A DNA stretch of 42,624 nucleotides from a virus: UHGV virus genome UHGV-0204464; one strand, 5' to 3'. Position 1 is the stretch's first letter; the number at the start of each line of letters is the position of its first letter. Positions 5,973 to 28,697 of this stretch are shown piece after piece. The notes beneath the pieces are model-generated. The model saw nothing but the letters and a program-made list of their open reading frames with translations. It was not told the DNA's origin and did not search any database. Made by a program: the position numbers and the translations under genes.

Positions 5973-6377
5973 TTAGTCATCCATGGATGGATTGAGCTTA
6001 TCTCGTGTTGATGTGGCAATTTTCCCAACATTTTTCAACCAAGATTTTAAGAAGGATATGTCGTCCTTAATATCATGAATATCCTCATTCTTTATACGAT
6101 CAACCTTATCCTCTAAGCTCTCTATAGAACGCTCAATGCTAGACAGAGAGATTTTTAAGTCCCCTTGCTCACGTTCCAGTGAGGATTTGAGAGCACAATA
6201 TTCGTTTTCTAGAATTCCTATTTTTTTTGTTAGAGAGTGCATTCGATACTCATACACCAAACCAGAAACGACTAATGCAGCCAACAGAAACCATTCAAGC
6301 ACACCAACCTCCTTAGTTTTGCGCAGGATACCAGATGATAATGTGTAGTTGGAGTAGCGCGGTTGTAATGCAAGCAT
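5973..6377 (-). CDS. Membrane-anchored coiled-coil protein; candidate superinfection-exclusion moron (sieA position)
   Basis: 134-aa ORF antisense to the late operon; one TM-like segment (LEWFLLAALVVSGLV) followed by a heptad-rich coiled coil; AT-rich; start codon uncertain. Confidence 0.45.
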   Translation of the reverse strand: MLALQPRYSNYTLSSGILRKTKEVGVLEWFLLAALVVSGLVYEYRMHSLTKKIGILENEYCALKSSLEREQGDLKISLSSIERSIESLEDKVDRIKNEDIHDIKDDISFLKSWLKNVGKIATSTRDKLNPSMDD

Positions 6378-7504: not shown

Positions 7505-8041
7505 TCAAACAACCCACCAGTTTGCCTGATTGGATACCAGCCTTGCAGTTTTTATGGAATTAATTATGCCATGCTCAAGAGCCTTGTTAGCATCCAAAAT
7601 GGTCGAGTCTGCTATCAGGGATGCCCACCTAATATGGGTTCCGATGTCGATATTGAACGTCTCAACGAAGCGATCAAGATCGTTATCGAGGCATTTCCCG
7701 TACTCTCTCAATCTGGCATGGTCGGCGGCTGGGGAGGCAAAGCACCATAATAGAGGATGTAACAGGAATCTTGATAATGGGTTTGCGAAACGTTCTGAGC
7801 CAGCCAGGAAAACGATATTAGCTATGGATTCAACATTGCTTATGTTGTGAGTTCTAACGGTAACAGGGAGTGACTTAAGAAAGTTATACGCAGTAAAGCC
7901 AGCGGCTGTTTCCCCTCCCTGACTTGATATATGGATATTTAATTCAGTTGCGCCTTGAGATAATGCGGTGAGACAGTGGTTCTGAAGTTGCCCAACAGTG
8001 GCAGTGTTAACGGGGCATAAGAAATGAATTGTGTGCAGCAT
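7505..8041 (-). CDS. ClpP-like (S14 family) serine peptidase homologue, translationally coupled to mnt
   Basis: 178 aa; by-eye alignment to ClpP core (IHISSQGGETAAGF vs INSPGG.ITAG; candidate Ser in NVESIAN and His in LLHPL); ATG overlaps the mnt stop (TAATG). Confidence 0.5.
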   Translation of the reverse strand: MLHTIHFLCPVNTATVGQLQNHCLTALSQGATELNIHISSQGGETAAGFTAYNFLKSLPVTVRTHNISNVESIANIVFLAGSERFANPLSRFLLHPLLWCFASPAADHARLREYGKCLDNDLDRFVETFNIDIGTHIRWASLIADSTILDANKALEHGIINSIKTARLVSNQANWWVV

Positions 8042-9871: not shown

Positions 9872-12817
9872 ATGAGAGACATTACAGCCAATGTGATCGT
9901 ATCGATGCCTTCGCAACTCTTCACTATGGCGCGTTCTTTTAAAGCCGTAGCTAATGGCAAAATTTATATCGGTAAAATTGACACAGATCCTGTAAATCCA
10001 GAAAACCAGATTCAGGTCTATGTGGAGAATGAAGACGGTTCTCACGTTCCTGTTTCGCAACCAATAATCATTAACGCTGCTGGATATCCTGTATATAACG
10101 GACAGATTGCCAAATTCGTTACCGTGCAAGGCCATTCTATGGCTGTTTATGATGCGTATGGTGCGCAGCAGTTCTATTTTCCTAATGTGCTGAAGTATGA
10201 CCCTGATCAGTTACGGCAGCAATTAGAAGACCCAGATGGAGCGAATAAATACCCAAAACTTCAGATAGCAAGATGGAGAGACAGTTATGATGTAAGAGGT
10301 TGGGGGGCTATTGGTGATGGTGTTCATGATGATACATCAGCTCTATCAGAATTACTTTCTGTTGCAACAGGTGGTGAAAAGATAGATGGGCGAGGGCTTA
10401 CTTTTAAAGTATCAACTCTTCCAGATGTCAGTCGATTTAAAAATGCTCGTTTTTTATTTGAGAGAATACCGGGTCAGCCTCTTTTTTATGCTTCTGAAGA
10501 TTTTATCCAGGGAGAGTTATTTAAAATTACAGATACACCGTGGTACAACGCCTGGACGCAGGATAAAACGTTTGTATATGACAATGTCATCTATGCGCCT
10601 TTTATGGCTGGAGACCGCCATGGTGTAAATAACCTCCATGTTGCATGGGTTCGCTCAGGAGATGACGGGAAGACCTGGACAACGCCGGAATGGCTTACAG
10701 ATTTACATAAAAACTATCCCACAGTTAACTATCACTGCATGAGTATGGGGGTTGTCAGAAATCGCCTTTTTGCTGTAATTGAGACGCGGACCGTGAGAGG
10801 AAATAAACTGCAGGTTGCAGAGTTGTGGGATCGCCCAATGAGTCGCAGCCTTCGCGTTTATGGTGGTATAACGAAAGCAGCAAATCAGCAAGTCGCTTAT
10901 ATTCGCATTACTGATCACGGATTATTTGCTGGTGATTTTGTCAACTTCTCAAACTCTGGTGTTACAGATGTTACCGGGAATATGACGGTGACTACTGTTA
11001 TTGATAAAAATACCTTTACAGTTACGACGCAAAATACCCAGGATGTGGATCAGAATAACGAGGGTAGATACTGGAGTTTTGGTACATCATTTCACTCGTC
11101 ACCATGGAGAAAAACCAGTCTTGGAACTATTCCTTCTTTTGTTGACGGAAGCACTCCTGTTACTGAGATTCACAGTTTTGCGACGATTAGCGATAACAGT
11201 TTTGCTGTTGGCTACCATAATGGTGATATTGGTCCACGCGAGCTTGGGATACTCTATTTCTCTGATGCTTTCGGTTCTCCTGGTAGCTTTGTTCGCAGAC
11301 GCATACCTGCAGAATATGAGGCGAATGCATCTGAGCCATGTGTAAAATATTATGATGGCATTCTGTATCTGACGACCAGGGGGACATTAAGTACTCAACC
11401 CGGTAGTTCATTGCACAGAAGCTCTGATTTAGGTACATCATGGAATTCTCTTCGCTTCCCAAATAATGTTCATCACTCAAACCTTCCTTTTGCCAAAGTT
11501 GGCGATGAGCTGATTATTTTTGGCAGTGAGCGCACATTTGGTGAGTGGGAAGGAGGAGAACCTGATAACCGTTATGCAGGAAATTATCCAAGAACATTTA
11601 TGACCAGAGTTAACGTCAATGAGTGGAGTCTGGATAATGTAGAGTGGGTTAATGTTACTGATCAGATTTATCAGGGCGGAATAGTTAACTCTGCGGTTGG
11701 TGTTGGTTCAGTTTGTATCAAAGACAACTGGCTGTACTACATTTTCGGTGGGGAAGACTTTCTAAACCCATGGAGCATAGGGGATAACAACAGAAAATAT
11801 CCTTATGTTCACGATGGTCACCCGGCTGATTTGTATTGTTTCAGGGTGAAAATTAAACAGGAAGAATTTGTTTCAAGGGATTTTGTCTACGGAGCCACTC
11901 CTAACAGAACGCTTCCTACTTTTATGTCGACGTCAGGCGTGAGGACGGTTCCTGTACCCGTTGATTTCACAGATGATGTTGCCGTCCAGTCACTGACTGT
12001 CCATGCAGGTACATCAGGACAAGTTCGCGCGGAAGTCAAACTTGAGGGTAATTACGCCATTATTGCGAAGAAAGTACCGTCTGATGATGTTACCGCTCAG
12101 AGATTAATCGTTAGCGGCGGTGAAACAACGTCTTCAGCAGATGGTGCAATGATAACGTTGCATGGTTCCAGAAGCAGTACTCCACGTCGCGCGGTATATA
12201 ACGCACTCGAACATCTTTTTGAGAACGGAGATGTTAAACCTTATCTTGATAATGTAAATGCTCTTGGTGGTCCGGGAAACAGGTTCTCGACAGTTTATCT
12301 TGGCTCCAATCCTGTGGTTACCAGTGACGGAACATTAAAGACAGAGCCGGTCTCTCCTGACGAAACATTGCTGGATGCCTGGGGTGACGTCAGGTATATC
12401 GCTTATAAATGGCTGAACGCTGTCGCTATAAAGGGGGAAGAAGGGGCGAGGATACATCATGGTGTAATCGCGCAGCAACTTCGTGATGTTCTTATTTCTC
12501 ACGGACTCATGGAAGAAGAAAGCACAACATGCCGCTATGCGTTTCTTTGCTATGACGATTATCCCGCAGTATATGATGACGTCATTACTGGCCAAAGGGA
12601 AATGCCGCTGACTGATAATGACGGGAGCATCATTGTTGATGAGGATGATAATCCAGTGATGGTAATGGAAGACATCATTGAGCGCGTTGAAATAACGCCA
12701 GCAGGATCTAGATGGGGGGTCAGGCCTGATCTCTTATTCTATATCGAGGCGGCATGGCAGCGCAGAGAAATGGATAAGATAAAAGCTAGGTTAGACTTAA
12801 TAGAAGGGAAGCACTAA
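9872..12817 (+). CDS. Chimeric tailspike: P22-type head-binding N-terminus fused to sialidase/endosialidase-like domain with C-terminal autochaperone-like segment
   Basis: 981 aa; first ~115 aa ([45 protein letters not shown]) match the P22 gp9 N-terminus; Asp-box motifs SGDDGKTW and SSDLGTSW; C-terminal HHGVIAQQL region resembles endosialidase/T5 pb1-type intramolecular chaperone domains. Confidence 0.8.
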
Positions 12818-14788: not shown

Positions 14789-14904
14789 CGCAAAGTCTCC
14801 GCAATTACACGCAAGAAAAGCCGCATTGATGCGGCAATGGTAGGTCTGGATATCATTGAGCAATGAACAGGCCTCATCGAGTGTGAGGCGGTGTTATTTC
14901 ATGG

Positions 14905-15249
14905 TTAGTCCTTGCGTAGCTCGCTGATTCTTCTGTAAGTCTCTGGTGCTTTGTTTCCGTGTATCTTCATTTCAAACTTCAACAGAGCAACGAGAGAATC
15001 CCATTCGTTGAGGATGCCTTTGAATGCCGGAACGCGCTTTGCAACCTTGTCGAATGAATCTCTGATTTCTGGAATCTGCTCAACAAGTGCAACGCATCGC
15101 CGGAAGTCTGCTGCGTCATGTGGAGCGCCGAAGTGATGACCATAGATATTTTTTTTCAGTCCACATGCGATTGAGGCAAGAGTTGCGCTACTGATGCCGA
15201 CATCGCCAGTTGATTGCCATTTCAAAACCTTCATAGCCAAATCTGACAT
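14905..15249 (-). CDS. Hypothetical early-left protein
   Basis: ORF with GGAGA RBS before the ATG at 15249 (MSDLAMKVLKW...). Confidence 0.5.
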   Translation of the reverse strand: MSDLAMKVLKWQSTGDVGISSATLASIACGLKKNIYGHHFGAPHDAADFRRCVALVEQIPEIRDSFDKVAKRVPAFKGILNEWDSLVALLKFEMKIHGNKAPETYRRISELRKD

Positions 15250-15275
15250 TTCTTGTCTCCAATAAAAAACCGCCA

Positions 15276-15443
15276 TCAGGCGTCTTGGTGTTCTTTCAGT
15301 TCTTCAATTCGAATATTGGTTACGTCTGCATGTGCTATCTGCGCCCATATCATCCAGTGGTTATAGCAGTCGTTGATGTCCTCTGCTTCGATAACCCTGT
15401 CGAATGGCTCTCCATTCCATTCACCTGTGACTCGGAAGTGCAT
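15276..15443 (-). CDS. Hypothetical small protein (55 aa)
   Basis: Hand-found ORF MHFRVTGEWNGEPF... with GGAG RBS 7 nt upstream; not in the supplied track. Confidence 0.3.
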   Translation of the reverse strand: MHFRVTGEWNGEPFDRVIEAEDINDCYNHWMIWAQIAHADVTNIRIEELKEHQDA

Positions 15444-15543
15444 TTATCATCTCCATAAAACAAAACTCGCCGTAGCGAGTTCAGATAAAAGAAATCCCCG
15501 CGAGTGCGAGGATTGTTATTCACCTTTGACGGCAAGTTGCAGG

Positions 15544-16167
15544 TTAGCCACGGTTAACCTCCTGCGGCGGTTCTGGTAGCGGCATCCAGAACAAGGCGTT
15601 CCCTAACCACGATAAAGTGCCGTCGCTCAACTCCACGTATTCCCCTTGTACCTGTCCTGCCATATACTCGCCGTGCTTTGAATAAATTAAAATCCAATCA
15701 TCTTGAGCGGGCATTCGCTCACTACAGCTTATCCAACCATCCGGAGTTACCGGATAGTTGCCGGGTTCTTTAATGTGCAAGCGAGGCTCACCATCTTTTG
15801 GTTCAGGCCACTGGCGCTCCATGTTGATCTTCAATTTATCTTCCATAGCAGCGGTAATTTCAGCATCGCTGATGCCAGCACGGCGCTGTGCATCCCACAA
15901 CAGGAAATGCATATCAGCCCACTCGCTGAGATCGTCTGGTTCGGCTGCGGCTTCCAGAGCCTCTTTTGAGAGGTGTTTCAGTGGACCAATGGGGCCAACG
16001 CAGCCAAATGTGGAGTCAGACCATTTGGCATGCTCGTGGCGAATCAGTTCGCGTTCCAGTGATGCCAGTGCAATTCGTGCCAGTTCCATTTGTTCGCCAC
16101 GAGTAAGCCCGTTTTCAAGCGGATTTTTAATGAACAATTCAATACGTTCTTTGGTAATAGTGGTCAT
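15544..16167 (-). CDS. Hypothetical protein, common lambdoid early-region family (possibly DUF550/DUF551-type)
   Basis: 207-aa ORF with AGGA RBS; family assignment from memory only. Confidence 0.55.
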   Translation of the reverse strand: MTTITKERIELFIKNPLENGLTRGEQMELARIALASLERELIRHEHAKWSDSTFGCVGPIGPLKHLSKEALEAAAEPDDLSEWADMHFLLWDAQRRAGISDAEITAAMEDKLKINMERQWPEPKDGEPRLHIKEPGNYPVTPDGWISCSERMPAQDDWILIYSKHGEYMAGQVQGEYVELSDGTLSWLGNALFWMPLPEPPQEVNRG

Positions 16168-16177
16168 TTGTTAGTCC

Positions 16178-16933
16178 TTAAACTGCTAGTTGCAATTGCA
16201 TTTCAAAGCGGTCGCGTTGTTCACAATACGCAAGAGAACCAGGGCTATTGTGTGCCTCAATCCGTTCTACCATTAATGCTGCTCGTGTCTCTTTACTTGC
16301 AGGTGCATAAGCCCCAGACCAGGCTTTATCAATACCGATGTTTCGAGCGACGTTCGTACTATCTGCGCTGGCTAAGGGTAATTTTGTGAATATCTGCGGA
16401 TTTAACATGCGCAATCCATGTAGTTTCGCAACCGGCTGACCATACTCATCAACAATGTGACGAATCAGGTCTTTCATTCTGGCTACCGCAAGAGTTGGGC
16501 GCTTTACGTCATAGTCGCCACAACTACCGATAGCCACTCGCGGAAACTCATTGCACAAATGAATAAATCGCTCGTCACTTTCATTCATGTGCCACACTGG
16601 AACGCCAGCTAGTTTTCCGTGAGGCCACTCATTCAGAAGCGCATCATTTTCTTCCTCTCCGCCATCAATAACATCAGGGATAATGGCAAAATCGAATCCT
16701 GGGTGATTCTTCCAGCGAGCAACAAACTCGTAGTAATCGCTCCAGTCGATTTTGTTTTTGCCAGCTGCTTTCCAGGCGGTGAATGCACCGTTGTCCAGCG
16801 CGAACGACTGACAGTATTCAGCCGCGAGATTGATCTGGCCTGAATGCGCAAAACTGATAAACGCATGTCGCCCTTTCCATGCTCTCATGGCGCACGTATC
16901 AGGAGTAATAGGCCCACCGTGATAGTGAATCAT
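16178..16933 (-). CDS. Hypothetical protein; possible tRNA-guanine-transglycosylase-like (DpdA-like) fold
   Basis: 251 aa from ATG at 16933 (coupled to upstream stop); LDNGAF segment resembles the TGT DSGGFQ motif; track ORF starts at an upstream TTG. Confidence 0.5.
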   Translation of the reverse strand: MIHYHGGPITPDTCAMRAWKGRHAFISFAHSGQINLAAEYCQSFALDNGAFTAWKAAGKNKIDWSDYYEFVARWKNHPGFDFAIIPDVIDGGEEENDALLNEWPHGKLAGVPVWHMNESDERFIHLCNEFPRVAIGSCGDYDVKRPTLAVARMKDLIRHIVDEYGQPVAKLHGLRMLNPQIFTKLPLASADSTNVARNIGIDKAWSGAYAPASKETRAALMVERIEAHNSPGSLAYCEQRDRFEMQLQLAV

Positions 16934-16934
16934 C

Positions 16935-17669
16935 TCACTCTCCTTTGATGCCAATGTTTACAGCCTGGCAAGCCTCTTTGAGCACCCAGTCAACAGCGTC
17001 TTTCCATGCTCCTGTTTCGACTGGCGGGTTCTCACGTTTTACCTGCTCATAAAAACGCACCGCTTTAATCAGTCCTTCAGGTACTACTGGCGATGGCTGT
17101 TTAGCTTCTAAATCAGCAATTCTGTCAACTACGGCATCTACTGCATCTGAAAAACCGAACCAGTTACTCCACTCAGGCCTATCCCCGGTTGCTGCAAAAT
17201 ACATATCAGCTAAAGCAGACTCAGCATGGTCACGCTCATTAATGAGTTGCTCTTCGCTTTTCTCCAGTTCAGCAATGCGCTTCTCTGCGGCCTCTGCCCT
17301 GCATTGTTCCCGTTGGAACATTTTGTGGGTGCGGTCGAGCGCCTCAAGTCTAGCTGCTGATGTTTTCTCTTCTGCTTCCAGCTCAACGCGCAGCTTCCCT
17401 ACCGTTAGCGCAATTTCCTCGTTCTCCTGGTCGCGGGATTTGATGTATTGCTGGTTCCTTTCCCGTTCATCCAGTAGTGCCAAAGCAATCTTTGGATTAA
17501 AGGCAGCAATAAATTCAGCGTTGTTTTTCAGAACGTGTTGCGCAATGGCCTGACTACTTAGTCGGACCTCATAACCACGTGCGCCACGGTGTGGTTTATA
17601 TGAGTCCCAGTCTCCCCACGTTGCTTTCTCTGCTTTTTCACGCAGTCCCTGATAGTCAATCTTGCTCAC
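16935..17669 (-). CDS. Ea22-like coiled-coil protein
   Basis: 244 aa with long central heptad/coiled-coil region (ELEAEEKTSAARLEALD...). Confidence 0.55.
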   Translation of the reverse strand: MSKIDYQGLREKAEKATWGDWDSYKPHRGARGYEVRLSSQAIAQHVLKNNAEFIAAFNPKIALALLDERERNQQYIKSRDQENEEIALTVGKLRVELEAEEKTSAARLEALDRTHKMFQREQCRAEAAEKRIAELEKSEEQLINERDHAESALADMYFAATGDRPEWSNWFGFSDAVDAVVDRIADLEAKQPSPVVPEGLIKAVRFYEQVKRENPPVETGAWKDAVDWVLKEACQAVNIGIKGE

Positions 17670-17973
17670 TGGTTGACTCCTTTGCTGGGCTTTCTAACTT
17701 CTGAGTGGTTGTATCAAACTCAAACAACTTAACCACGTCATCAAACAGGACATAATCGCCATCAGAATCTTCAGTCATGTCAGCGCCACAATCCTGACCG
17801 AACGAGTCACAACCATCCATATCAAGCTCGTATCGCTTGAGTTTTGCGATATTTGATAAATTCAGCGCCAGTACAGCAAGGTCATAAACCTCGTCAGCGG
17901 TATACCCGGCACCATGCCCATACATTTCAATGCGGGATATGATTTCTTCTACACGTTGTTTTGTGATCGTCAT
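17656..17973 (-). CDS. Hypothetical acidic protein
   Basis: 105-aa ORF in tightly packed minus-strand operon. Confidence 0.45.
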   Translation of the reverse strand: MTITKQRVEEIISRIEMYGHGAGYTADEVYDLAVLALNLSNIAKLKRYELDMDGCDSFGQDCGADMTEDSDGDYVLFDDVVKLFEFDTTTQKLESPAKESTSEQD

Positions 17974-18431
17974 TTTTGCTCACCTCCCTGTTCTTCCAGA
18001 AAAATACGCATAGCCTCAAGCATCTCTTCGGTGTCATACGGTGATAACTTGTCACGCAGGATGTGTTCAATGCTGTTAATGAACTTGCGGATTGCTTTGC
18101 GTTCAATTTCAGCCAGGAAAGCATCGGTGGCTGGGGTGTCTGATTGCAGAGACTTTGCGCGATAGTCATTCCACCCTCTTGCATACATGGGATTAACTTG
18201 CACTCCATCTTTTACGCAATATGCCTGCCCTCCACGGTTGATAACCTTGATTTCATCCATAGCGCCAGACTTCAGCCCCGCATTCTCCGCAGCCAGCGCC
18301 GCGCACTTGGCCTCCGCTTCAGCAAATTTACGCACCAGATATTCAGCGTTTGTTTCGTTAACCTTTAAATCGCTTGGGATGCATTTACCTTTCAGGAATC
18401 CATCCATCTCAATTAGTGACATTTGTTTCAT
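17970..18431 (-). CDS. Hypothetical protein
   Basis: 153-aa ORF; start overlaps upstream stop. Confidence 0.5.
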
Positions 18432-18592
18432 TTCTTCCCACTCCGCAACATCGCATTCAGATATTTGTTTTGATTCACTGACGGAAAAGAATTTCTCTTT
18501 AGCAATTCCTCTCTCGATGGCATTGGCTTTACGCGTTGGCGAATAATCATTTCTGCCGGAAGAATGCCTGGGTTGTATGCAAGTCCTCTCAT
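18428..18592 (-). CDS. Hypothetical small protein
   Basis: In-frame ATG at 18592 ([12 protein letters not shown]...) just after the stop of the 18603-18899 gene; the longer track ORF would overlap that gene. Confidence 0.3.
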
Positions 18593-18602
18593 GGTAAATT
18601 CC

Positions 18603-18899
18603 TCAGTCATTACTGATAGCGCCATAGCGTGATCGATAATTACGCAGCCGCGGGTCGATATATTCAGGGAAGTGGGTATATGTGGCTTTGCGGAATGGTC
18701 GGATTGATGTTTCGTTTGTTCGGTCCTTCTCATCTTTTAACGCGAGTTGTATATCGCGTCGGTACATCCGTTCTGCTTTTGTTTCTGGTGGCAGATCGAT
18801 AAACGTGTCGAAAATGTTTTTGATATTTTCCAGCACCTCCGCCTTGGAGCTACCGGAGCAATTGCGCGGGTCATCCGCACCATACAGAGGCGCTGGCAT
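18603..18899 (-). CDS. Hypothetical protein
   Basis: 98-aa ORF. Confidence 0.45.
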
Positions 18900-18922
18900 A
18901 ATGGGAGCCTTATTTTCAGTAA

Positions 18923-19510
18923 TCAGAAAGCAGGGTAATCGTTCTGGCTGTAACCATAATCATCTGCATGATTCTGGCTTACGTTTTTAGAGCGATTGTC
19001 TTTATCTTTGAGATTGGCAACCATGTTGGCGATAGTTTCTGGTTGCTTGCCTTCTACCTTTTCTTTAAGGGTTTGACCTGTTTGTGCAATAAACGGGATG
19101 CGTATTTCCATCTGGTAGCTGTCTGCGCCAGTCTTTTTGTTTGTGGTTAATACTTTCTGGAGCACTAACCCGATTTTCTTTCCATGAAATTCAGGTGCAA
19201 CAAATTTACTGGCGGAAACCATATGCTGCGTTAATTGTCCAATCCCGGCACACCCCATCATGGCGTGAACGACATTTGCGCCAAATTTGTTTTCCGTTCC
19301 GTCATTTTTCTGAACACAGACGCTAAGATATTGGATTTTACGTCCGTCGTCGGATTCTCCAGAAAACTCAATAAATTTGGCTCCTTTTTCTGATTGCTTT
19401 AGTTCTGCTTCAGTAATGGTAATGATATGGGCTCCAGTTTCGTTAATAAAACCACCTTGCCCTGCGGTCAGTGCTGCTTCTTCGTTATAAGTAAAAATCA
19501 CGTTGCTCAT
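18923..19510 (-). CDS. SSB-like partner of Sak4-type recombinase (DUF669-like)
   Basis: 195 aa; immediately downstream of and overlapping the Walker-A ATPase gene; acidic C-terminal tail DDYGYSQNDYPAF. Confidence 0.5.
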   Translation of the reverse strand: MSNVIFTYNEEAALTAGQGGFINETGAHIITITEAELKQSEKGAKFIEFSGESDDGRKIQYLSVCVQKNDGTENKFGANVVHAMMGCAGIGQLTQHMVSASKFVAPEFHGKKIGLVLQKVLTTNKKTGADSYQMEIRIPFIAQTGQTLKEKVEGKQPETIANMVANLKDKDNRSKNVSQNHADDYGYSQNDYPAF

Positions 19511-20187
19511 GCGGCGTTTTCCTTAATTTGATGAACATTATTGATGCCGTAGTAATCACAAACAGTGGCATCGACGAAAGAGAGATCGTTATCAATCTCA
19601 TTGGAATCAAACATTCCCATTGGGGATTTGACAGTGTCTGCACCGTTGTTTTTCGTGGTGAAAAAGAACTGGTCATCGCGGGTAAGAGTGCGAAGAACTA
19701 TAGTAAACATGCCTTCGACAGTGATTTTCTCGTCCAGCATTTTGCCGATAGTTTTCATTTTCACGCGCCCCATAGGGGTTTCTTCGGTATGTGCAAGAAA
19801 ATAGACTCTCAGGTCATCAGGTGCATCCTGTGCAGCCTTAATCACCTCCCATGCGTGGCGGCCTATCTCAGTAAATTTATCAAACGATTTTTCTTCTGAG
19901 CGGCGCATAAACTCATTGCTCATCACATACTGGAAGTCATCAACAATAACGATTCTTTTTCCGTATTCGTGAGCACGCTTAATTACAGCAACTATTACGT
20001 CCCATTTGTCAGTGGTAACTACGGTTCCTTTTTTTGCTCTGGCATCCCATGCAAGCCAGTCTTTTGATTTAAATGGTAGCGGCTTGCCTATTGGTTTTAT
20101 AAGTATTGCTTCCTCTGGATTGATATTTCTCATGCTGGTTGATTTTCCGGTGCCAGATTCACCGAGTATTAATGTCGCAGTTCCCAT
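19507..20187 (-). CDS. Sak4-like RecA-fold ATPase (single-strand annealing recombination)
   Basis: 226 aa; Walker A GESGTGKST near N-terminus; occupies the exo/bet slot of a lambda-like PL operon. Confidence 0.6.
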   Translation of the reverse strand: MGTATLILGESGTGKSTSMRNINPEEAILIKPIGKPLPFKSKDWLAWDARAKKGTVVTTDKWDVIVAVIKRAHEYGKRIVIVDDFQYVMSNEFMRRSEEKSFDKFTEIGRHAWEVIKAAQDAPDDLRVYFLAHTEETPMGRVKMKTIGKMLDEKITVEGMFTIVLRTLTRDDQFFFTTKNNGADTVKSPMGMFDSNEIDNDLSFVDATVCDYYGINNVHQIKENAA

Positions 20188-20195
20188 AATTTGCC

Positions 20196-20396
20196 TCAGA
20201 ATGGTAATTCGGATGGGCAGGAAAGAAATTCGCGCTCATTCATGCGCTCTCTTTGCGCCTGCCATAAACAAAGTTGTTTCTTTGATTTATCTCCCGCTTT
20301 ACGCCAGTAACGAGCCTCAGCAATGTGATATTCTCTTTTTAATCGACTTAACTCTGGAGTTTTCGCCAGTTCTACCGGAATCATTTTGACCTCCAT
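20196..20396 (-). CDS. Hypothetical small protein (gam position)
   Basis: 66-aa ORF. Confidence 0.4.
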   Translation of the reverse strand: MEVKMIPVELAKTPELSRLKREYHIAEARYWRKAGDKSKKQLCLWQAQRERMNEREFLSCPSELPF

Positions 20397-20494
20397 TTTC
20401 TGTAGGCTTCTACGGCTTCACGAAACATCTTTTCATCGCCAATAAAAGTGGCGATAGTGAATTTAGTCTGGATAGCCATAAGTGTTTTATCCAT
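20381..20494 (-). CDS. Kil-like small protein candidate
   Basis: 37 aa, MDKTLMAIQTKFTIATFIGDEKMFREAV...; resembles my recollection of lambda Kil; start overlaps cIII stop. Confidence 0.4.
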   Translation of the reverse strand: MDKTLMAIQTKFTIATFIGDEKMFREAVEAYRKWRSK

Positions 20495-20627
20495 TTTTGG
20501 GAACTCCTGGCTGATTAAGTATGTCGATAAGGCGTTTCCATCCATCACGTAATTTACGTGTGATTCGTTCAAGTAAAGATTCGGAAGGGCAGCCAGCAAC
20601 AGGCCACCCTGCAATGGCATATTGCAT
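20487..20627 (-). CDS. cIII: CIII (FtsH inhibitor), apparently shortened at C-terminus
   Basis: MQYAIAGWPVAGCPSESLLERITRKLRDGWKRLIDILNQPGVPKNG then stop; matches lambda CIII, which I recall as 54 aa. Confidence 0.6.
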   Translation of the reverse strand: MQYAIAGWPVAGCPSESLLERITRKLRDGWKRLIDILNQPGVPKNG

Positions 20628-20699
20628 GGTGTGCTCCTTATTTATACATAACGAAAAACGCCTCGAGTGAAGCGTTATTGGTATGCGGTAACGCCGCGC

Positions 20700-21068
20700 T
20701 CAGGCGGCCTTGATAGTCATATCATCTGAATCAAATATTCCTGATGTATCGATATCGGTAATTCTTATTCCTTCACTACCATCCATTGGAGGCCATCCTT
20801 CCTGACCATTTCCATCATTCCAGTCGAACTCACACACAACACCATATGCATTTAAGTCGCTTGAAATTGCTATAAGCAGAGCATGTTGCGCCAGCATGAT
20901 TAATACAGCATTTAATACAGAGCCGTGTTTATTGAGTCGGTATTCAGAGTCTGACCAGAAATTATTAATCTGGTGAAGTTTTTCCTCTGTCATTACGTCA
21001 TGGTCAATTTCAATTTCTATTGATGCTTTCCAGTCGTAATCAATGATGTATTTTTTGATGTTTGACAT
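20700..21068 (-). CDS. Hypothetical protein (Ea10-position)
   Basis: 122-aa ORF, acidic C-terminal half. Confidence 0.5.
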   Translation of the reverse strand: MSNIKKYIIDYDWKASIEIEIDHDVMTEEKLHQINNFWSDSEYRLNKHGSVLNAVLIMLAQHALLIAISSDLNAYGVVCEFDWNDGNGQEGWPPMDGSEGIRITDIDTSGIFDSDDMTIKAA

Positions 21069-21250
21069 CTATTCATATCCTCATAGATAAAAAATCGCCC
21101 TCACACTGGAGGGCAAAGAAGATTTCCAATAATCAGAACAAGTCGGCTCCTGTTTAGTTACGAGCGACATTGCTCCGTGTATTCACTCGTTGGAATGAAT
21201 ACACAGTGCAGTGTTTATTCTGTTATTTATGCCAAAAATAAAGGCCACTA

Positions 21251-21451
21251 TCAGGCAGCTTTGTTGTTCTGTTTACCAAGTTCTCTGGCAATCATTGCCG
21301 TCGTTCGTATTGCCCATTTATCGACATATTTCCCATCTTCCATTACAGGAAACATTTCTTCAGGCTTAACCATGCATTCCGATTGCAGCTTGCATCCATT
21401 GCATCGTTTGAATTGTCCACACCATTGATTTGTATCAATAGTCGTAGTCAT
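21251..21451 (-). CDS. Small Cys-containing protein, possibly Ral (restriction alleviation)
   Basis: 66 aa, MTTTIDTNQWCGQFKRCNGCKLQSEC...; length and position fit lambda Ral from memory. Confidence 0.45.
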   Translation of the reverse strand: MTTTIDTNQWCGQFKRCNGCKLQSECMVKPEEMFPVMEDGKYVDKWAIRTTAMIARELGKQNNKAA

Positions 21452-21664
21452 ACGGATAGTCCTGGTATTGTTCCATCACATCTTGAGGATGCTCTTCGAA
21501 CTCTTCAAATTCTTCTTCCATATATCACCTTAAATAGTGGATTGCGGTAGTAAAGATTGTGCCTGTCTTTTAACCACATCAGGCTCGGTGGTTCTCGTGT
21601 ACCCCTACAACGAGAAATCGGATAAACTCTATTCACCCCTACAGAGAGCAAAAGAGAAACGCCG

Positions 21665-22262: not shown

Positions 22263-22535
22263 TCATCTCGCCGTCAGTTGTTTTGATTTCCGGTAGCCTG
22301 CCGCGTAAAGAGCTACGTTCGGAAGACAAGTTGAACCTTCATATTTTCTGGTCAACGTTGTCAGAGTTATCACTTCTGCTCTCATTGCTGGTTTGAGCTT
22401 GCATTGCAAGACCACTCGTGAAGGGGTTGGCCTGTGTAGCTTGTCGGAGCTGATCGCCTCCTGACTTTGCAGATTTGCGCGACGAGCTCTACGGCGAGAA
22501 GCTGCGGTGCCTTTAAATTCTGTTTTTCTGGACAT
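22263..22535 (-). CDS. N-like transcription antiterminator (P22 gp24 family)
   Basis: Arg-rich motif TAASRRRARRANLQSQ near N-terminus; C-terminus LPNVALYAAGYRKSKQLTAR resembles P22 gp24; internal ATG at 22535 chosen over the longer track ORF. Confidence 0.7.
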   Translation of the reverse strand: MSRKTEFKGTAASRRRARRANLQSQEAISSDKLHRPTPSRVVLQCKLKPAMRAEVITLTTLTRKYEGSTCLPNVALYAAGYRKSKQLTAR

Positions 22536-22631
22536 GGATTCCTCCCGAATAAACTTTGGCGATGCAATCTCGAAGCTCCTCCTGAGACGGTTGCTTCGGC
22601 ATTGCATCCCACAGCTTATGTGGTTGGGTGA

Positions 22632-22971: not shown

Positions 22972-23724
22972 TTATGCTGCAAGTCTCTTAACCCAAGTCT
23001 CTCTTTTGGAGAATGGTAGAACTTGGCTTGATTCATGGAAGAGTAAGGAGAGTTGTTGCATTTGATCACCAATTGCTTCGCTGTCTATAACAACAAATCT
23101 GTTGTTATACTCCTCACTTGAAGCTTTAAGATCAATTAGTTTCCCAAGCAATGAGTAAGCACTATTCCAGCTTCCTCCGTGTTTCACGCTTGATGTAAAA
23201 ACGTATTTAGGTATGTCGGTTTTTATTGTTACAGGGACGGTAATTTGATGTCCACTCAAGCCATATACGTTTTCACGAAGAGAAAGTGCGTCTCTAAGCT
23301 CTGTGTGATATAGATAATCAATAACCATACTTTCAAACTTTTCAGCTTGAACTGGCTGATACCAGTCTAACGACAAAGTTGATGCGAGTATACCAGCTCT
23401 AATTATGTTCGATGTAATCGCACCGACATCCTTTTCTGTTGCCCAAGCAATGATTTCTCCTCGAGCATTGAGTTCTGCGCCTTCTTTAAGCAGTAATTGT
23501 CGTATCTCATCAAGTCGTTTTTTGGTAAGCGAGATCCCTCTTGCCTCCATATTCATTAAGGCATCGCATCTGTCACTAACTAAATACCTACCATTGACTT
23601 CACGGATAAAGGCACCGACATGCTCTCCATCATCACAGTAAGTGAATGGACTGATAATTCTCAAGGTCTTGCCTATTGGATGGCATTCGAAACCTAGTTG
23701 TGAGATCACTGTTGAGCACATCAT
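22972..23724 (-). CDS. Hypothetical protein B of cI-linked cassette (unknown function)
   Basis: 250-aa ORF; ATG overlaps stop of upstream gene (ATGA); no TM segment and no motif I recognise; AT-rich. Confidence 0.6.
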   Translation of the reverse strand: MMCSTVISQLGFECHPIGKTLRIISPFTYCDDGEHVGAFIREVNGRYLVSDRCDALMNMEARGISLTKKRLDEIRQLLLKEGAELNARGEIIAWATEKDVGAITSNIIRAGILASTLSLDWYQPVQAEKFESMVIDYLYHTELRDALSLRENVYGLSGHQITVPVTIKTDIPKYVFTSSVKHGGSWNSAYSLLGKLIDLKASSEEYNNRFVVIDSEAIGDQMQQLSLLFHESSQVLPFSKRETWVKRLAA

Positions 23725-24278
23725 ATTCCAAACCCCATTTGCCCCGACTCATCTTCAAGCGGTAAAGGTATTCTCCCAGAGTAAGTTATGTTCAGATGTT
23801 TACAGAAGTAATTCCAATACCCTACCAGGTCATCTGGGTTTATGTCATCTTCGATTGGAAACGCTATTCTATCACTATAGTATCCAGCTTCTTCATAGTA
23901 TACATGGTAGTGAGCACCGTAAATGATATCTTGGTACTTCGGATGATCGACCTTGTAACTATTCGTGTGTTTGTCAAAGTGATAGGTATCTACCGCGAAA
24001 ACCCTCTTGTTATGATAGAAAGCAATAATATTTATTTTAGGGTAAGAAATCGGGTCATCAGGTTCTGAATCCTGATCTGGTTTCCATTTCAGTTCAAACT
24101 TTAGCCCTTGTATAGGTATACAATCCTCATCCAAGGGGATGATATGGGCTTGTAGCCACATATCAGAGCGACTTGGTTTCTGTTTCCATTTAACGCCAGA
24201 AAAGTTAACTATTTTTTTACAATAAAGTACTTTATCAACTTCTACTTGGCTTGGCTGATAATCATCTATTTTTGCCAA
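23721..24278 (-). CDS. Hypothetical protein A of cI-linked cassette (unknown function)
   Basis: 185-aa ORF beginning 39 nt after the cI stop; first in-frame codon is TTG with GGCGG upstream (next ATG is 39 codons in); Tyr/His/acidic-rich; AT-rich. Confidence 0.55.
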   Translation of the reverse strand: MAKIDDYQPSQVEVDKVLYCKKIVNFSGVKWKQKPSRSDMWLQAHIIPLDEDCIPIQGLKFELKWKPDQDSEPDDPISYPKINIIAFYHNKRVFAVDTYHFDKHTNSYKVDHPKYQDIIYGAHYHVYYEEAGYYSDRIAFPIEDDINPDDLVGYWNYFCKHLNITYSGRIPLPLEDESGQMGFGI

Positions 24279-24317: not shown

Positions 24318-24977
24318 TCACCCAAACGTCTCTTCAGGCCATTGGCTGGCGATAACTTTCCCCACAACGGAACAACTCTCATTGCATGGGATCATTGGGT
24401 ATTGTGGGTTTAGTGGCTGTAGAAACACCTGACCGCTATCCCTGATCAGTTTCTTGAAGGTAAATTCATCACCACCAAGTCTGGCTATGCAGAAATCGCC
24501 GGGCTCAACAGCTTGCTCAGGGTCAACCAGAATTAACATCCCGTCAGGAAAGCTGGGTTTGGAACCTGTTGGTGCGGTCATTGAGTTACCTTCAACCTCA
24601 AGCCAGAATGCAGAGTCACTGGCTTTTTTGGTTGTGCTTACCAATCTCTCCGCATCGCCTTTGGTAAAGGTTCTGAGTTCTGGAGAGAACATCCCAGCCT
24701 GAACATGAGAAAAAACAGGGTACTCATATTGTTTTTTAACTGGGGCCGATGAGTATTCGCCAACAGGTGAAAATGTCCCGTCGTGGTTGAATGATATGTT
24801 ATCAATACCAAGGTATTTAAACACCACACCAATATCACTAAGAGATGGATGACGAGATCCGCGCAACCAGTGTCCAATCCCACCCTGCGTCATACCTAGC
24901 TCTTCGGCTAACTTCTCTTGAGTTATGCCGAGCTCTTTCATTCTGGATCTAGCCAGTTCATACCATTTCATTTTCAT
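24318..24977 (-). CDS. cI: CI-type prophage repressor (HTH plus LexA-like S24 peptidase domain)
   Basis: N-terminal HTH ([20 protein letters not shown]), C-terminal autocleavage-type domain ([17 protein letters not shown]); divergent from cro; start taken at MKMKWY. Confidence 0.8.
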
Positions 24978-25088
24978 GTCCTTATTATTACGCTCTGTAC
25001 TGGAACCATCCATGCACAATGTGTATTTTTACTTGTATTCGCAAAGTACATATTGTATTTTTTTATTCGTGTTTACTATGGAGGGCAT
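24978..25088. promoter_or_regulatory. OR/PR/PRM region between cI and cro
   Basis: Divergent intergenic region with AGTACATATTGTAT and TACTT..AAGTA partial palindromes related to the OL palindrome; TTGTAT-17-TATTTT promoter candidate; GGAGG RBS before cro. Confidence 0.4.
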
Positions 25089-27732: not shown

Positions 27733-28173
27733 ATGAAAAAACTAACCTTTGAAATTCGATCTCCGGCACATCAGCAAAACGCTATTCACGCAGTACAGCA
27801 AATCCTTCCAGACCCAACCAAACCAATCGTAGTAACCATTCAGGAACGCAACCGCAGCTTAGACCAAAACAGGAAGCTATGGGCCTGCTTAGGTGACGTC
27901 TCTCGTCAGGTTGAATGGCATGGTCGCTGGCTGGATGCAGAAAGCTGGAAGTGTGTGTTTACCGCAGCATTAAAGCAGCAGGATGTTGTTCCTAACCTTG
28001 CCGGGAATGGCTTTGTGGTAATAGGCCAGTCAACCAGCAGGATGCGTGTAAGCGAATTTGCGGAGCTATTAGAGCTTATACAGGCATTCGGTACAGAGCG
28101 TGGCGTTAAGTGGTCAGACGAAGCGCGACTGGCTCTCGAATGGAAAGCGCGATGGGGAGATCGGGCTGCATGA
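27733..28173 (+). CDS. ninB: NinB (Orf) recombination mediator
   Basis: MKKLTFEIRSPAHQQNAIHAVQQILPDPTKPIVVTIQERNRSLDQNRKLWA... matches lambda NinB; start at internal ATG. Confidence 0.9.
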   Translation: MKKLTFEIRSPAHQQNAIHAVQQILPDPTKPIVVTIQERNRSLDQNRKLWACLGDVSRQVEWHGRWLDAESWKCVFTAALKQQDVVPNLAGNGFVVIGQSTSRMRVSEFAELLELIQAFGTERGVKWSDEARLALEWKARWGDRAA

Positions 28174-28697
28174 CTATCAAATCAAATACGCCAGCACACG
28201 ACAAGGACTGCTGGCAAACGCCGCTTTGGCTTTTTGATGCACTGGATATTGAGTTTGGATTCTGGCTGGATTCGGCAGCGAGCGACAAAAATGCTCTGTG
28301 CGCTCACTGGCTAACTGAGGACGACGACGCGCTCAATTCTGAGTGGGTAAGCCACGGTGCAATCTGGAATAACCCACCGTACAGCAATATCAGGCCGTGG
28401 GTGGAAAAAGCCGCTGAGCAGTGTATACAACAGCGACAGACGGTAGTGATGCTTGTGCCAGAGGATATGTCTGTCGGATGGTTCAGCAAGGCTCTGGAGA
28501 GTGTTGACGAAGTTCGCATCATCACTGATGGACGGATTAATTTTATCGAACCATCGACGGGGCTGGAGAAGAAGGGAAACAGCAAAGGTTCCATACTGCT
28601 GATTTGGCGACCGTTCATCAGTCCCCGGCGAATGTTTACTACCGTATCCAAAGCGGCATTGATGGCGATCGGGCAGGGCGTCAGGAGGGCGGAATGA
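28170..28697 (+). CDS. DNA N6-adenine methyltransferase (phage Dam-like, orphan)
   Basis: 175 aa from ATG overlapping ninB stop; NPPY motif (WNNPPYS); no adjacent restriction endonuclease gene. Confidence 0.7.

What the first reader, a model, noticed from the sequence alone, without database searches (positions are those of the whole stretch)
16178..16933. Possible TGT/DpdA-like transglycosylase without linked preQ0 synthesis genes
The 251-aa protein contains an LDNGAF segment reminiscent of the catalytic DSGGFQ motif of tRNA-guanine transglycosylases and a length typical of DpdA-like enzymes that insert 7-deazaguanines into DNA. No folE/queD/queE/queC genes are in the window, so it would have to use host precursors. 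If confirmed it indicates genome hypermodification as anti-restriction. The assignment rests on a short motif and is tentative.
Basis: inference. Interest (0 to 1): 0.5.

Follow-up and report, generated by a model that had tools for sequence, protein, structure and literature searches.

The report
Solo DpdA-like guanine transglycosylase in prophage
This temperate E. coli phage carries a stand-alone copy of the enzyme family that swaps guanines in DNA for 7-deazaguanine bases. The family, including a 92%-identical Salmonella phage gene, is already catalogued, so the find is real but ordinary, and its true activity is still untested.

Summary
The ORF is real: minus strand 16178-16933, 251 aa, strong ribosome-binding site, LDNGAF at residues 46-51.

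A family profile aligns with the experimentally validated phage CAjan DpdA at 98.9% probability. The catalytic positions are invariant or nearly so: D47, H172 and D191 in 76/76 sequences, D87 and H115 in 75/76.

No preQ0 synthesis gene occurs in the window or in 160 related viral loci. queC is present in 5425 of 5426 complete E. coli genomes.

The family is already published as the "DpdA-only" phage group (Hutinet 2019), which lists orthologues from SPN3UB (92% identical), SfI and HK106. Two tested relatives, phages 7-11 and MED16 (36-38% identical), carry only sparse dADG (0.02-0.13% of G). In MED16 this gave no visible restriction protection. "Hypermodification" is therefore overstated.

One observation I did not find in the papers I read: adenine DNA methyltransferase genes directly abut these genes in 10 of 27 lineages.

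Verdict: already known kind, biochemistry unproven, modest interest.

The parts
16178..16933 (-). CDS of the 251-aa DpdA-like (TGT-superfamily) protein; stop codon included
16940..16945 (-). Shine-Dalgarno AAGGAG, six bases upstream of the ATG. The stop of the upstream Ead/Ea22-like gene (16935-17669) ends one base before the ATG, so translational coupling is likely.
   Evidence: inference for coupling
16781..16798 (-). LDNGAF. D47 (76/76) aligns with D63 of CAjan DpdA (LDSGAF). It is the inferred general acid/base, equivalent to D95 of bacterial DpdA.
   Evidence: role taken from PMC10164549
16661..16681 (-). IPDVIDG after strand 4. This is the candidate guanine-recognition Asp. D87 is 75/76 conserved, but hhalign pairs the CAjan Asp (D105) with D90 (45/76).
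16589..16597 (-). VWH. H115 (75/76) aligns with the invariant H132 of CAjan-type DpdA.
16517..16531 (-). IGSCG. G136-S137 align with the invariant G153-G154 of CAjan-type DpdA, the inferred 7-substituent pocket loop.
   Evidence: role is inference
16409..16426 (-). KLHGLR. H172 (76/76) aligns with CAjan H187. By spacing it matches the residue that hydrogen-bonds the nucleophile in Cap10 (H226, 22 residues before D248).
   Evidence: Cap10 residues from bioRxiv 2025.04.06.647259; equivalence is inference
16355..16369 (-). SADST. D191-S192 (both 76/76) align with CAjan D206-S207. D191 is the inferred catalytic nucleophile, equivalent to D256 of bacterial DpdA.
   Evidence: role from PMC10164549

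Best explanation
The gene encodes a stand-alone ('singleton') member of the phage DpdA branch of the tRNA-guanine-transglycosylase superfamily. It sits inside the leftward early operon of a P22-like temperate phage, between the recombination genes and xis/int, so it is made during lytic growth or induction rather than in the lysogen. The proposed mechanism is the TGT/DpdA double-displacement base exchange. D191 attacks C1' of a deoxyguanosine in double-stranded phage DNA and expels guanine. D47 acts as general acid and base. A 7-deazaguanine made by the host queuosine pathway (preQ0, or its amide ADG) then resolves the covalent intermediate. The expected result is a handful to a few dozen dPreQ0/dADG marks per genome, not bulk replacement. 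These would act as a sparse, probably sequence-specific mark alongside adenine methylation. Shown here: the fold, homology to a validated DpdA, conservation of catalytic residues, absence of phage-encoded precursor genes, presence of host queC, and recurrent adjacency to DNA methyltransferase genes. Inferred: DNA as the substrate, which base is inserted, its density, and any protective effect.
Confidence: 0.6

Rival explanations
1. The enzyme is a diverged base-exchange or glycosylase-type enzyme whose real substrate base is not preQ0. It might insert ADG or CDG directly, or another purine analogue, or merely excise a base. Alternatively it has little or no activity on the phage genome in E. 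coli, as with phage Orion.
For: The tested DpdA-only relatives carry dADG rather than dPreQ0, at very low density, and Orion carries none. Hutinet 2019 explicitly left open whether singleton DpdAs have functionally diverged. The pocket-loop sequence IGSxG differs from GG in CAjan-type DpdA.
Against: The full catalytic set is invariant across 76 sequences down to 33% identity, which argues for retained transglycosylase chemistry. Orion's host lacks the preQ0 pathway, which explains that negative result. E. coli has queC.
Confidence: 0.17
2. The enzyme is a tRNA-directed transglycosylase that alters queuosine-family modification of host tRNA during infection.
For: The fold and catalytic residues are shared with tRNA-guanine transglycosylases. 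Databases label the family 'queuine tRNA-ribosyltransferase'.
Against: The Zn-binding C-terminal subdomain of TGTs is missing (I recall that it takes part in tRNA binding). The only sequence-detectable relatives are phage DpdAs, not TGT. The gene is repeatedly adjacent to DNA methyltransferase genes.
Confidence: 0.08
3. The protein is a Cap10-like, protein-directed enzyme, or a decoy that binds or transfers a 7-amido-7-deazaguanine attached to a protein. One possible role is interference with host type IV CBASS or QatABCD immunity.
Confidence: 0.05

Closest known systems
'DpdA-only' (singleton) phage DpdA group of gamma-proteobacterial phages (Hutinet et al. 2019, Nat Commun, PMC6884629), with members in phages SPN3UB, SfI, HK106, SEN1, BTP1 and 7-11, plus Pantoea phage MED16 gp38 (PMC8306585)
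   Same: It is the same protein family: 92% identity to SPN3UB, 68% to SfI, and 36-38% to HK106, SEN1, 7-11 and MED16. Lengths are similar (234-261 aa). No phage-encoded preQ0 genes are present, and the hosts have the queuosine pathway.
   Different: Nothing material differs. This copy sits in the ea region of a P22-like E. coli phage, whereas in SPN3UB the gene is in the nin region. No modification data exist for this copy or any lambdoid or P22-like carrier.
Phage DpdA1 (phages CAjan and 9g), the validated preQ0-DNA transglycosylase
   Same: Homology is detectable by profile comparison (98.9%), with all catalytic motifs in register. CAjan DpdA, like this protein, shows no CxCxxC zinc-site motif. 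Homologues of both give no Pfam TGT hit. The conserved His is present.
   Different: Identity over the aligned columns is about 23%. The protein is shorter (251 against 306 aa), with different N- and C-terminal extensions. DpdA1 genes lie inside a folE-queD-queE-queC cluster and modify 25-30% of G. Here there is no cluster, and relatives modify at most 0.13% of G.
Bacterial DpdA of the Dpd restriction-modification system (PDB 7UI4; PMC10164549)
   Different: No PADLOC DpdA HMM match. The large Ins8/Zn subdomain is absent (413 against 251 aa). There is no DpdB ATPase, DpdC or other dpd gene nearby.
Cap10 of type IV CBASS (PDB 9NTN; bioRxiv 2025.04.06.647259)
   Different: Cap10 works on a protein-linked nucleobase within a CD-NTase/Cap9 operon, and none of that context is present here. 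There is no sequence-level match.

Membership tests
TGT superfamily (tRNA/DNA guanine transglycosylases) | (beta/alpha)8 TIM-barrel catalytic domain resembling solved TGT/DpdA structures | tested here: met
TGT superfamily (tRNA/DNA guanine transglycosylases) | Catalytic Asp nucleophile after strand 8 and general acid/base Asp after strand 3 | tested here: met
   D191 and D47 are 76/76 conserved and align with D206 and D63 of CAjan-type DpdA. Equivalence to bacterial DpdA D256 and D95 is by motif order, not by direct superposition.
TGT superfamily (tRNA/DNA guanine transglycosylases) | Asp that reads the Watson-Crick edge of guanine (bacterial DpdA D130) | tested here: inconclusive
   D87 is 75/76 conserved, but hhalign pairs the CAjan Asp (D105) with D90, which is only 45/76 conserved.
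TGT superfamily (tRNA/DNA guanine transglycosylases) | Structural Zn site (CxCxxC...H) in a C-terminal subdomain | tested here: not met
   There are five scattered Cys and no such motif, and the protein ends 60 residues after the nucleophile. CAjan DpdA also shows no such motif in its sequence.
TGT superfamily (tRNA/DNA guanine transglycosylases) | Match to Pfam TGT model PF01702 | tested here: not met
   No Pfam family at E<=10. CAjan-type DpdA homologues likewise carry no Pfam domain, so this does not discriminate.
Phage DpdA (DpdA1 / DpdA-only group) | Detectable homology to an experimentally validated phage DpdA | tested here: met
   hhalign 98.9%, E 1.5e-17, 173 columns against the CAjan DpdA profile. 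The match to 7-11 DpdA is 100%, E 1e-47.
Phage DpdA (DpdA1 / DpdA-only group) | Conserved histidine that DpdA2 lacks (9g H196 according to Hutinet 2019) | tested here: met
   H172 is 76/76 conserved and aligns with the invariant CAjan H187. That CAjan H187 equals 9g H196 is my inference.
Phage DpdA (DpdA1 / DpdA-only group) | No phage-encoded preQ0/G+ synthesis genes (this defines the DpdA-only subgroup) | tested here: met
   tblastn with CAjan FolE, QueD, QueE, QueC and YhhQ and with E. coli QueC found nothing in the window or in 160 related loci with up to 10 kb of flank. Pfam on 24 other window ORFs found none.
Phage DpdA (DpdA1 / DpdA-only group) | 7-deazaguanine present in virion DNA and dependent on the gene | not testable with these tools
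   This needs LC-MS/MS of phage DNA with and without the gene. Only correlative data exist for relatives 7-11 and MED16.
Bacterial Dpd system DpdA | Match to the DpdA HMM and neighbouring dpdB/dpdC genes | tested here: not met
   PADLOC gave no hit for the protein. The neighbours are an Ea22-like gene, a DUF550/DUF551 gene and unknowns.
Cap10 (type IV CBASS) | Operon with a CD-NTase and QueC-like Cap9 | tested here: not met
   No such genes in the window and no PADLOC hit. The only link is fold similarity.

The most novel reading that the evidence does not exclude
Singleton DpdAs of temperate enterobacterial phages may write a sparse, sequence-specific 7-amido/7-cyano-7-deazaguanine mark of a few to a few dozen sites per genome. 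The enzyme would draw entirely on the host queuosine pathway and work as one module with an adjacent orphan adenine methyltransferase. The purpose would be to imitate or evade modification-reading host systems, such as Dpd-type restriction or modified-base glycosylases, rather than to block classical restriction by bulk replacement.
Probability: 0.2. Interest if true: 0.55.

Novelty: already known. Interest (0 to 1): 0.3.

Why it matters
If active, the gene means that about 4% of complete E. coli genomes (204/5426) carry prophages able to place queuosine-pathway bases into DNA at the host's metabolic expense. What DpdA-only enzymes actually do has been open since 2019. A P22-like, inducible E. 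coli phage in a host with standard queC genetics is a convenient system to settle it. The recurrent pairing with adenine methyltransferase genes suggests a combined DNA-marking module worth testing. As a discovery it adds little, because the family, its singleton status and near-identical orthologues are already in the literature.

Tried and rejected
**Sequence searches that found nothing**
- Pfam, NCBIfam and phmmer/hmmsearch against PDB sequences gave no hit. The profile search returned only spurious GCN4 coiled-coil matches.
- hhalign of the family profile against the single E. coli TGT sequence gave 1.7% probability. It is uninformative, because a single-sequence template is too weak.
- PADLOC matched neither DpdA nor Cap10 models. 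CAjan DpdA itself only reaches E 1.3e-3 there.

**Structure search**

**Ideas tested and dropped**
- A functional link to the downstream dATP/dGTP pyrophosphohydrolase (DUF550)+DUF551 gene was rejected. DUF550 occurs near the gene in only 9 of 80 related loci, so the adjacency reflects mosaic shuffling in the ea region.
- Longer family members were checked as informative fusions. One is a truncated D12 methyltransferase joined to a DpdA-like domain that lacks its first two strands. Another overlaps a tail gpD domain. Both look like deletion or gene-calling chimeras and were used only as evidence of adjacency.
- An own promoter (moron-style expression) was not found: no minus-strand promoter-like site lies in 14.8-21.5 kb.

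- The search for related loci with the broad alignment failed because it had no conserved stretch. It worked with a narrower alignment.
- Literature searches for later work on singleton DpdAs found nothing beyond the 2019, 2021 and 2023 papers.

Full report
**The observation**

The coordinates hold a genuine gene on the minus strand. It runs from the ATG at 16933 to the stop at 16178 and encodes 251 aa.
- An AAGGAG ribosome-binding site lies six bases upstream, at 16940-16945.
- The stop codon of the preceding Ead/Ea22-like gene ends one base before the ATG.
- All homologues start MIHYHG, so the upstream in-frame TTG (258 aa) is not the start.
- LDNGAF is residues 46-51.
- The gene is strongly conserved: 7845 homologues at E<=1e-3 in a 5.8-billion-protein search and 839 clusters at 50% identity in an exhaustive HMMER scan.

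**The surroundings**

The window is a P22-like temperate E. coli phage related to CUS-3.
- It has a K1 endosialidase tailspike, lambda-type O/P replication genes, N, cI, cII, NinB, RusA, SieB, integrase and Xis.
- The gene lies in the leftward early operon, between the recombination/Abc2 genes and xis-int.
- Its flanking genes are an Ea22-like gene upstream and a DUF550 (dATP/dGTP pyrophosphohydrolase)+DUF551 gene downstream.
- No promoter-like site occurs on the minus strand across 14.8-21.5 kb, and terminator-like hairpins follow only the downstream gene. From this I infer delayed-early, lytic-phase expression.

**What the protein is**

Direct sequence libraries are nearly silent. Pfam, NCBIfam, PADLOC and PDB sequence searches gave no hit. 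PHROGs places the protein in phrog_887, 'queuine tRNA-ribosyltransferase', at E 1e-102.

The structural evidence is as follows.
- A 76-sequence alignment down to 33% identity (A1) gave an AlphaFold2 model with pLDDT 93.4 and pTM 0.90, with eight alternating strands and helices.
- Against predicted viral structures, all named hits at E<=1e-3 are phage queuine tRNA-ribosyltransferases.

The decisive link is profile homology to the validated phage CAjan DpdA. hhalign gives 98.9% probability with E 1.8e-17 against the single sequence and 1.5e-17 against a 16-sequence profile, over 172-173 columns. The motifs pair in order:

| This protein | CAjan DpdA |
|---|---|
| LDNGAF (D47) | LDSGAF (D63) |
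| VWH (H115) | CFH (H132) |
| IGS (G136-S137) | IGG/LGG (G153-G154) |
| KLHGL (H172) | KLHAF (H187) |
| SADS (D191-S192) | SCDS (D206-S207) |

Conservation in A1 is D47 76/76, D87 75/76, H115 75/76, G136 73/76, H172 76/76, D191 76/76 and S192 76/76. By the roles established for bacterial DpdA (D95 acid/base, D256 nucleophile, D130 base recognition; PMC10164549), D47 and D191 are the catalytic pair. The base-recognition Asp is ambiguous, because hhalign pairs the CAjan Asp with D90 rather than the better-conserved D87. The zinc subdomain of TGT and bacterial DpdA is absent. CAjan DpdA also shows no such motif in its sequence.

**No linked precursor genes**

- tblastn with CAjan FolE, QueD, QueE, QueC and YhhQ and with E. 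coli QueC finds nothing in the window.
- Nothing is found in 80 loci of close relatives or in 80 loci of MED16/SEN1-type relatives, each with up to 10 kb of flank.
- Pfam on 24 other window ORFs found none of these families.
- The host can supply the base: queC is in 5425 of 5426 complete E. coli genomes.
- Phage 9g DpdA expressed alone in E. coli put dPreQ0 into plasmid DNA (PMC6884629).

**Comparison with what is known**

This is the published 'DpdA-only' group.
- Hutinet et al. [quoted passage not shown] Their Supplementary Data 1 names SPN3UB YP_007011024, SfI, HK106, SEN1, BTP1 and 7-11.
- The window protein is 92% identical to the SPN3UB protein, 68% to SfI, 36% to HK106 and 37% to SEN1. 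It is 36% identical to 7-11 DpdA (E 3e-33) and 38% to MED16 gp38 (E 4e-44).
- Virion DNA of 7-11 contains dADG at 50 per 10^6 nt (about 0.02% of G). MED16 DNA contains 354 per 10^6 nt (about 0.13% of G), with no noticeable effect on the restriction enzymes tested.
- Scaled to this genome (19,809 G on both strands), that is about 4-30 modified positions. 'Hypermodification as anti-restriction' is therefore not what the relatives show.
- Neither study tied dADG to the phage gene by a knockout. The propagation hosts were unsequenced, so a host Dpd contribution remains possible.

**An added observation**

Adenine DNA methyltransferase genes directly abut DpdA-like genes on the same strand.
- This occurs in 54 of 160 viral loci, which is 10 of 27 lineages at 90% identity.
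- The methyltransferases belong to two unrelated families, PF05869 Dam-type and PF02086 D12-class, and lie on either side of the gene.
- Where a methyltransferase lies anywhere within the flanks (11 lineages), it is adjacent in 10.
- In L054 the two genes overlap by 4 nt.
- One database protein is a truncated D12 methyltransferase joined to a DpdA-like domain.
- This guilt by association favours DNA as the substrate and a shared DNA-marking role. In the window itself the Dam-type gene (28110-28697) is 11 kb away.
- By contrast, the DUF550 neighbour is not a conserved partner; it is near the gene in 9 of 80 loci.

**Mechanism and rivals**

Best reading (about 0.6): an early-expressed DNA guanine transglycosylase that uses host preQ0 or ADG to write sparse 7-deazaguanine marks by the TGT double-displacement mechanism.

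Rivals:
- a diverged or practically silent enzyme with another base or only excision activity (about 0.17);
- a tRNA-directed enzyme (about 0.08), disfavoured by the missing Zn subdomain and the DNA-methyltransferase neighbourhood;

**Verdict**

The family assignment and the dependence on host precursors are supported. The implied hypermodification is not. The kind is already known and near-identical orthologues are catalogued. The gene is present in 204 of 5426 complete E. coli genomes, all eight listed copies annotated 'hypothetical protein'. Interest is modest. The value lies in offering a tractable system for the open question of what singleton DpdAs do, and in the methyltransferase pairing.

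Noticed in passing
window 15544-16167 (minus strand): The gene immediately downstream encodes a PF04447 dATP/dGTP pyrophosphohydrolase (formerly DUF550, E 1e-41) fused to DUF551. A guanine-nucleotide enzyme next to a guanine transglycosylase looked suggestive. However, DUF550 is near the DpdA-like gene in only 9 of 80 related loci, so no conserved partnership exists.
   Followed up: yes
window 28110-28697 (plus strand); loci L054 10001-11298, L075, L081, L047, L062, L101-L148: The phage also encodes a Dam-type N6-adenine DNA methyltransferase (PF05869, E 1e-64). In other phages an adenine methyltransferase gene (PF05869 or PF02086) directly abuts the DpdA-like gene, in 54/160 loci or 10/27 lineages. 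In L054 the two genes overlap by 4 nt.
   Followed up: partly
protein P0234 (421 aa, metagenomic): This is a chimera. A D12-class adenine methyltransferase truncated just after its DPPY motif is joined in frame to a DpdA-like domain lacking its first ~40 residues. It is probably a deletion between adjacent genes or an assembly artefact.
   Followed up: partly
window 9872-12817 (plus strand): The 981-aa tailspike carries a P22 head-binding domain plus endosialidase beta-propeller, beta-barrel and chaperone domains. The phage is therefore predicted to be K1-capsule-specific, like CUS-3.
   Followed up: no
window 7505-8041 and 5973-6377 (minus strand): Two minus-strand ORFs sit among plus-strand virion and injection genes. 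One has a ClpP-protease-like domain (PF00574, E 2e-11) and the other has no family. They are possible moron or accessory genes.
   Followed up: no
window 22972-23724 and 23721-24278 (minus strand): Two overlapping genes lie between the N gene (22263-22607) and the ORF I take to be the repressor (24318-25019). One is DUF1828 (E 5e-8). The other gives a weak DUF6978 hit (E 2e-4, below the Pfam cut-off). I recall that lambda carries rexAB in a comparable position, so they are candidate prophage-encoded exclusion or defence genes.
   Followed up: no
window 14800-21500: Terminator-like hairpins are enriched (17 found against 6.1 +/- 2.5 in shuffles) and sigma-70-like promoter matches are depleted (4 against 10.9 +/- 3.4) across the early-left region.
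   Followed up: no
locus L004 (IMGVR_UViG_2541047826_000014) against the window: This viral contig encodes a 100%-identical DpdA-like protein but has no DUF550 match downstream, only DUF551-like sequence at +629. Recombination breakpoints therefore lie right at the gene's borders.
   Followed up: partly
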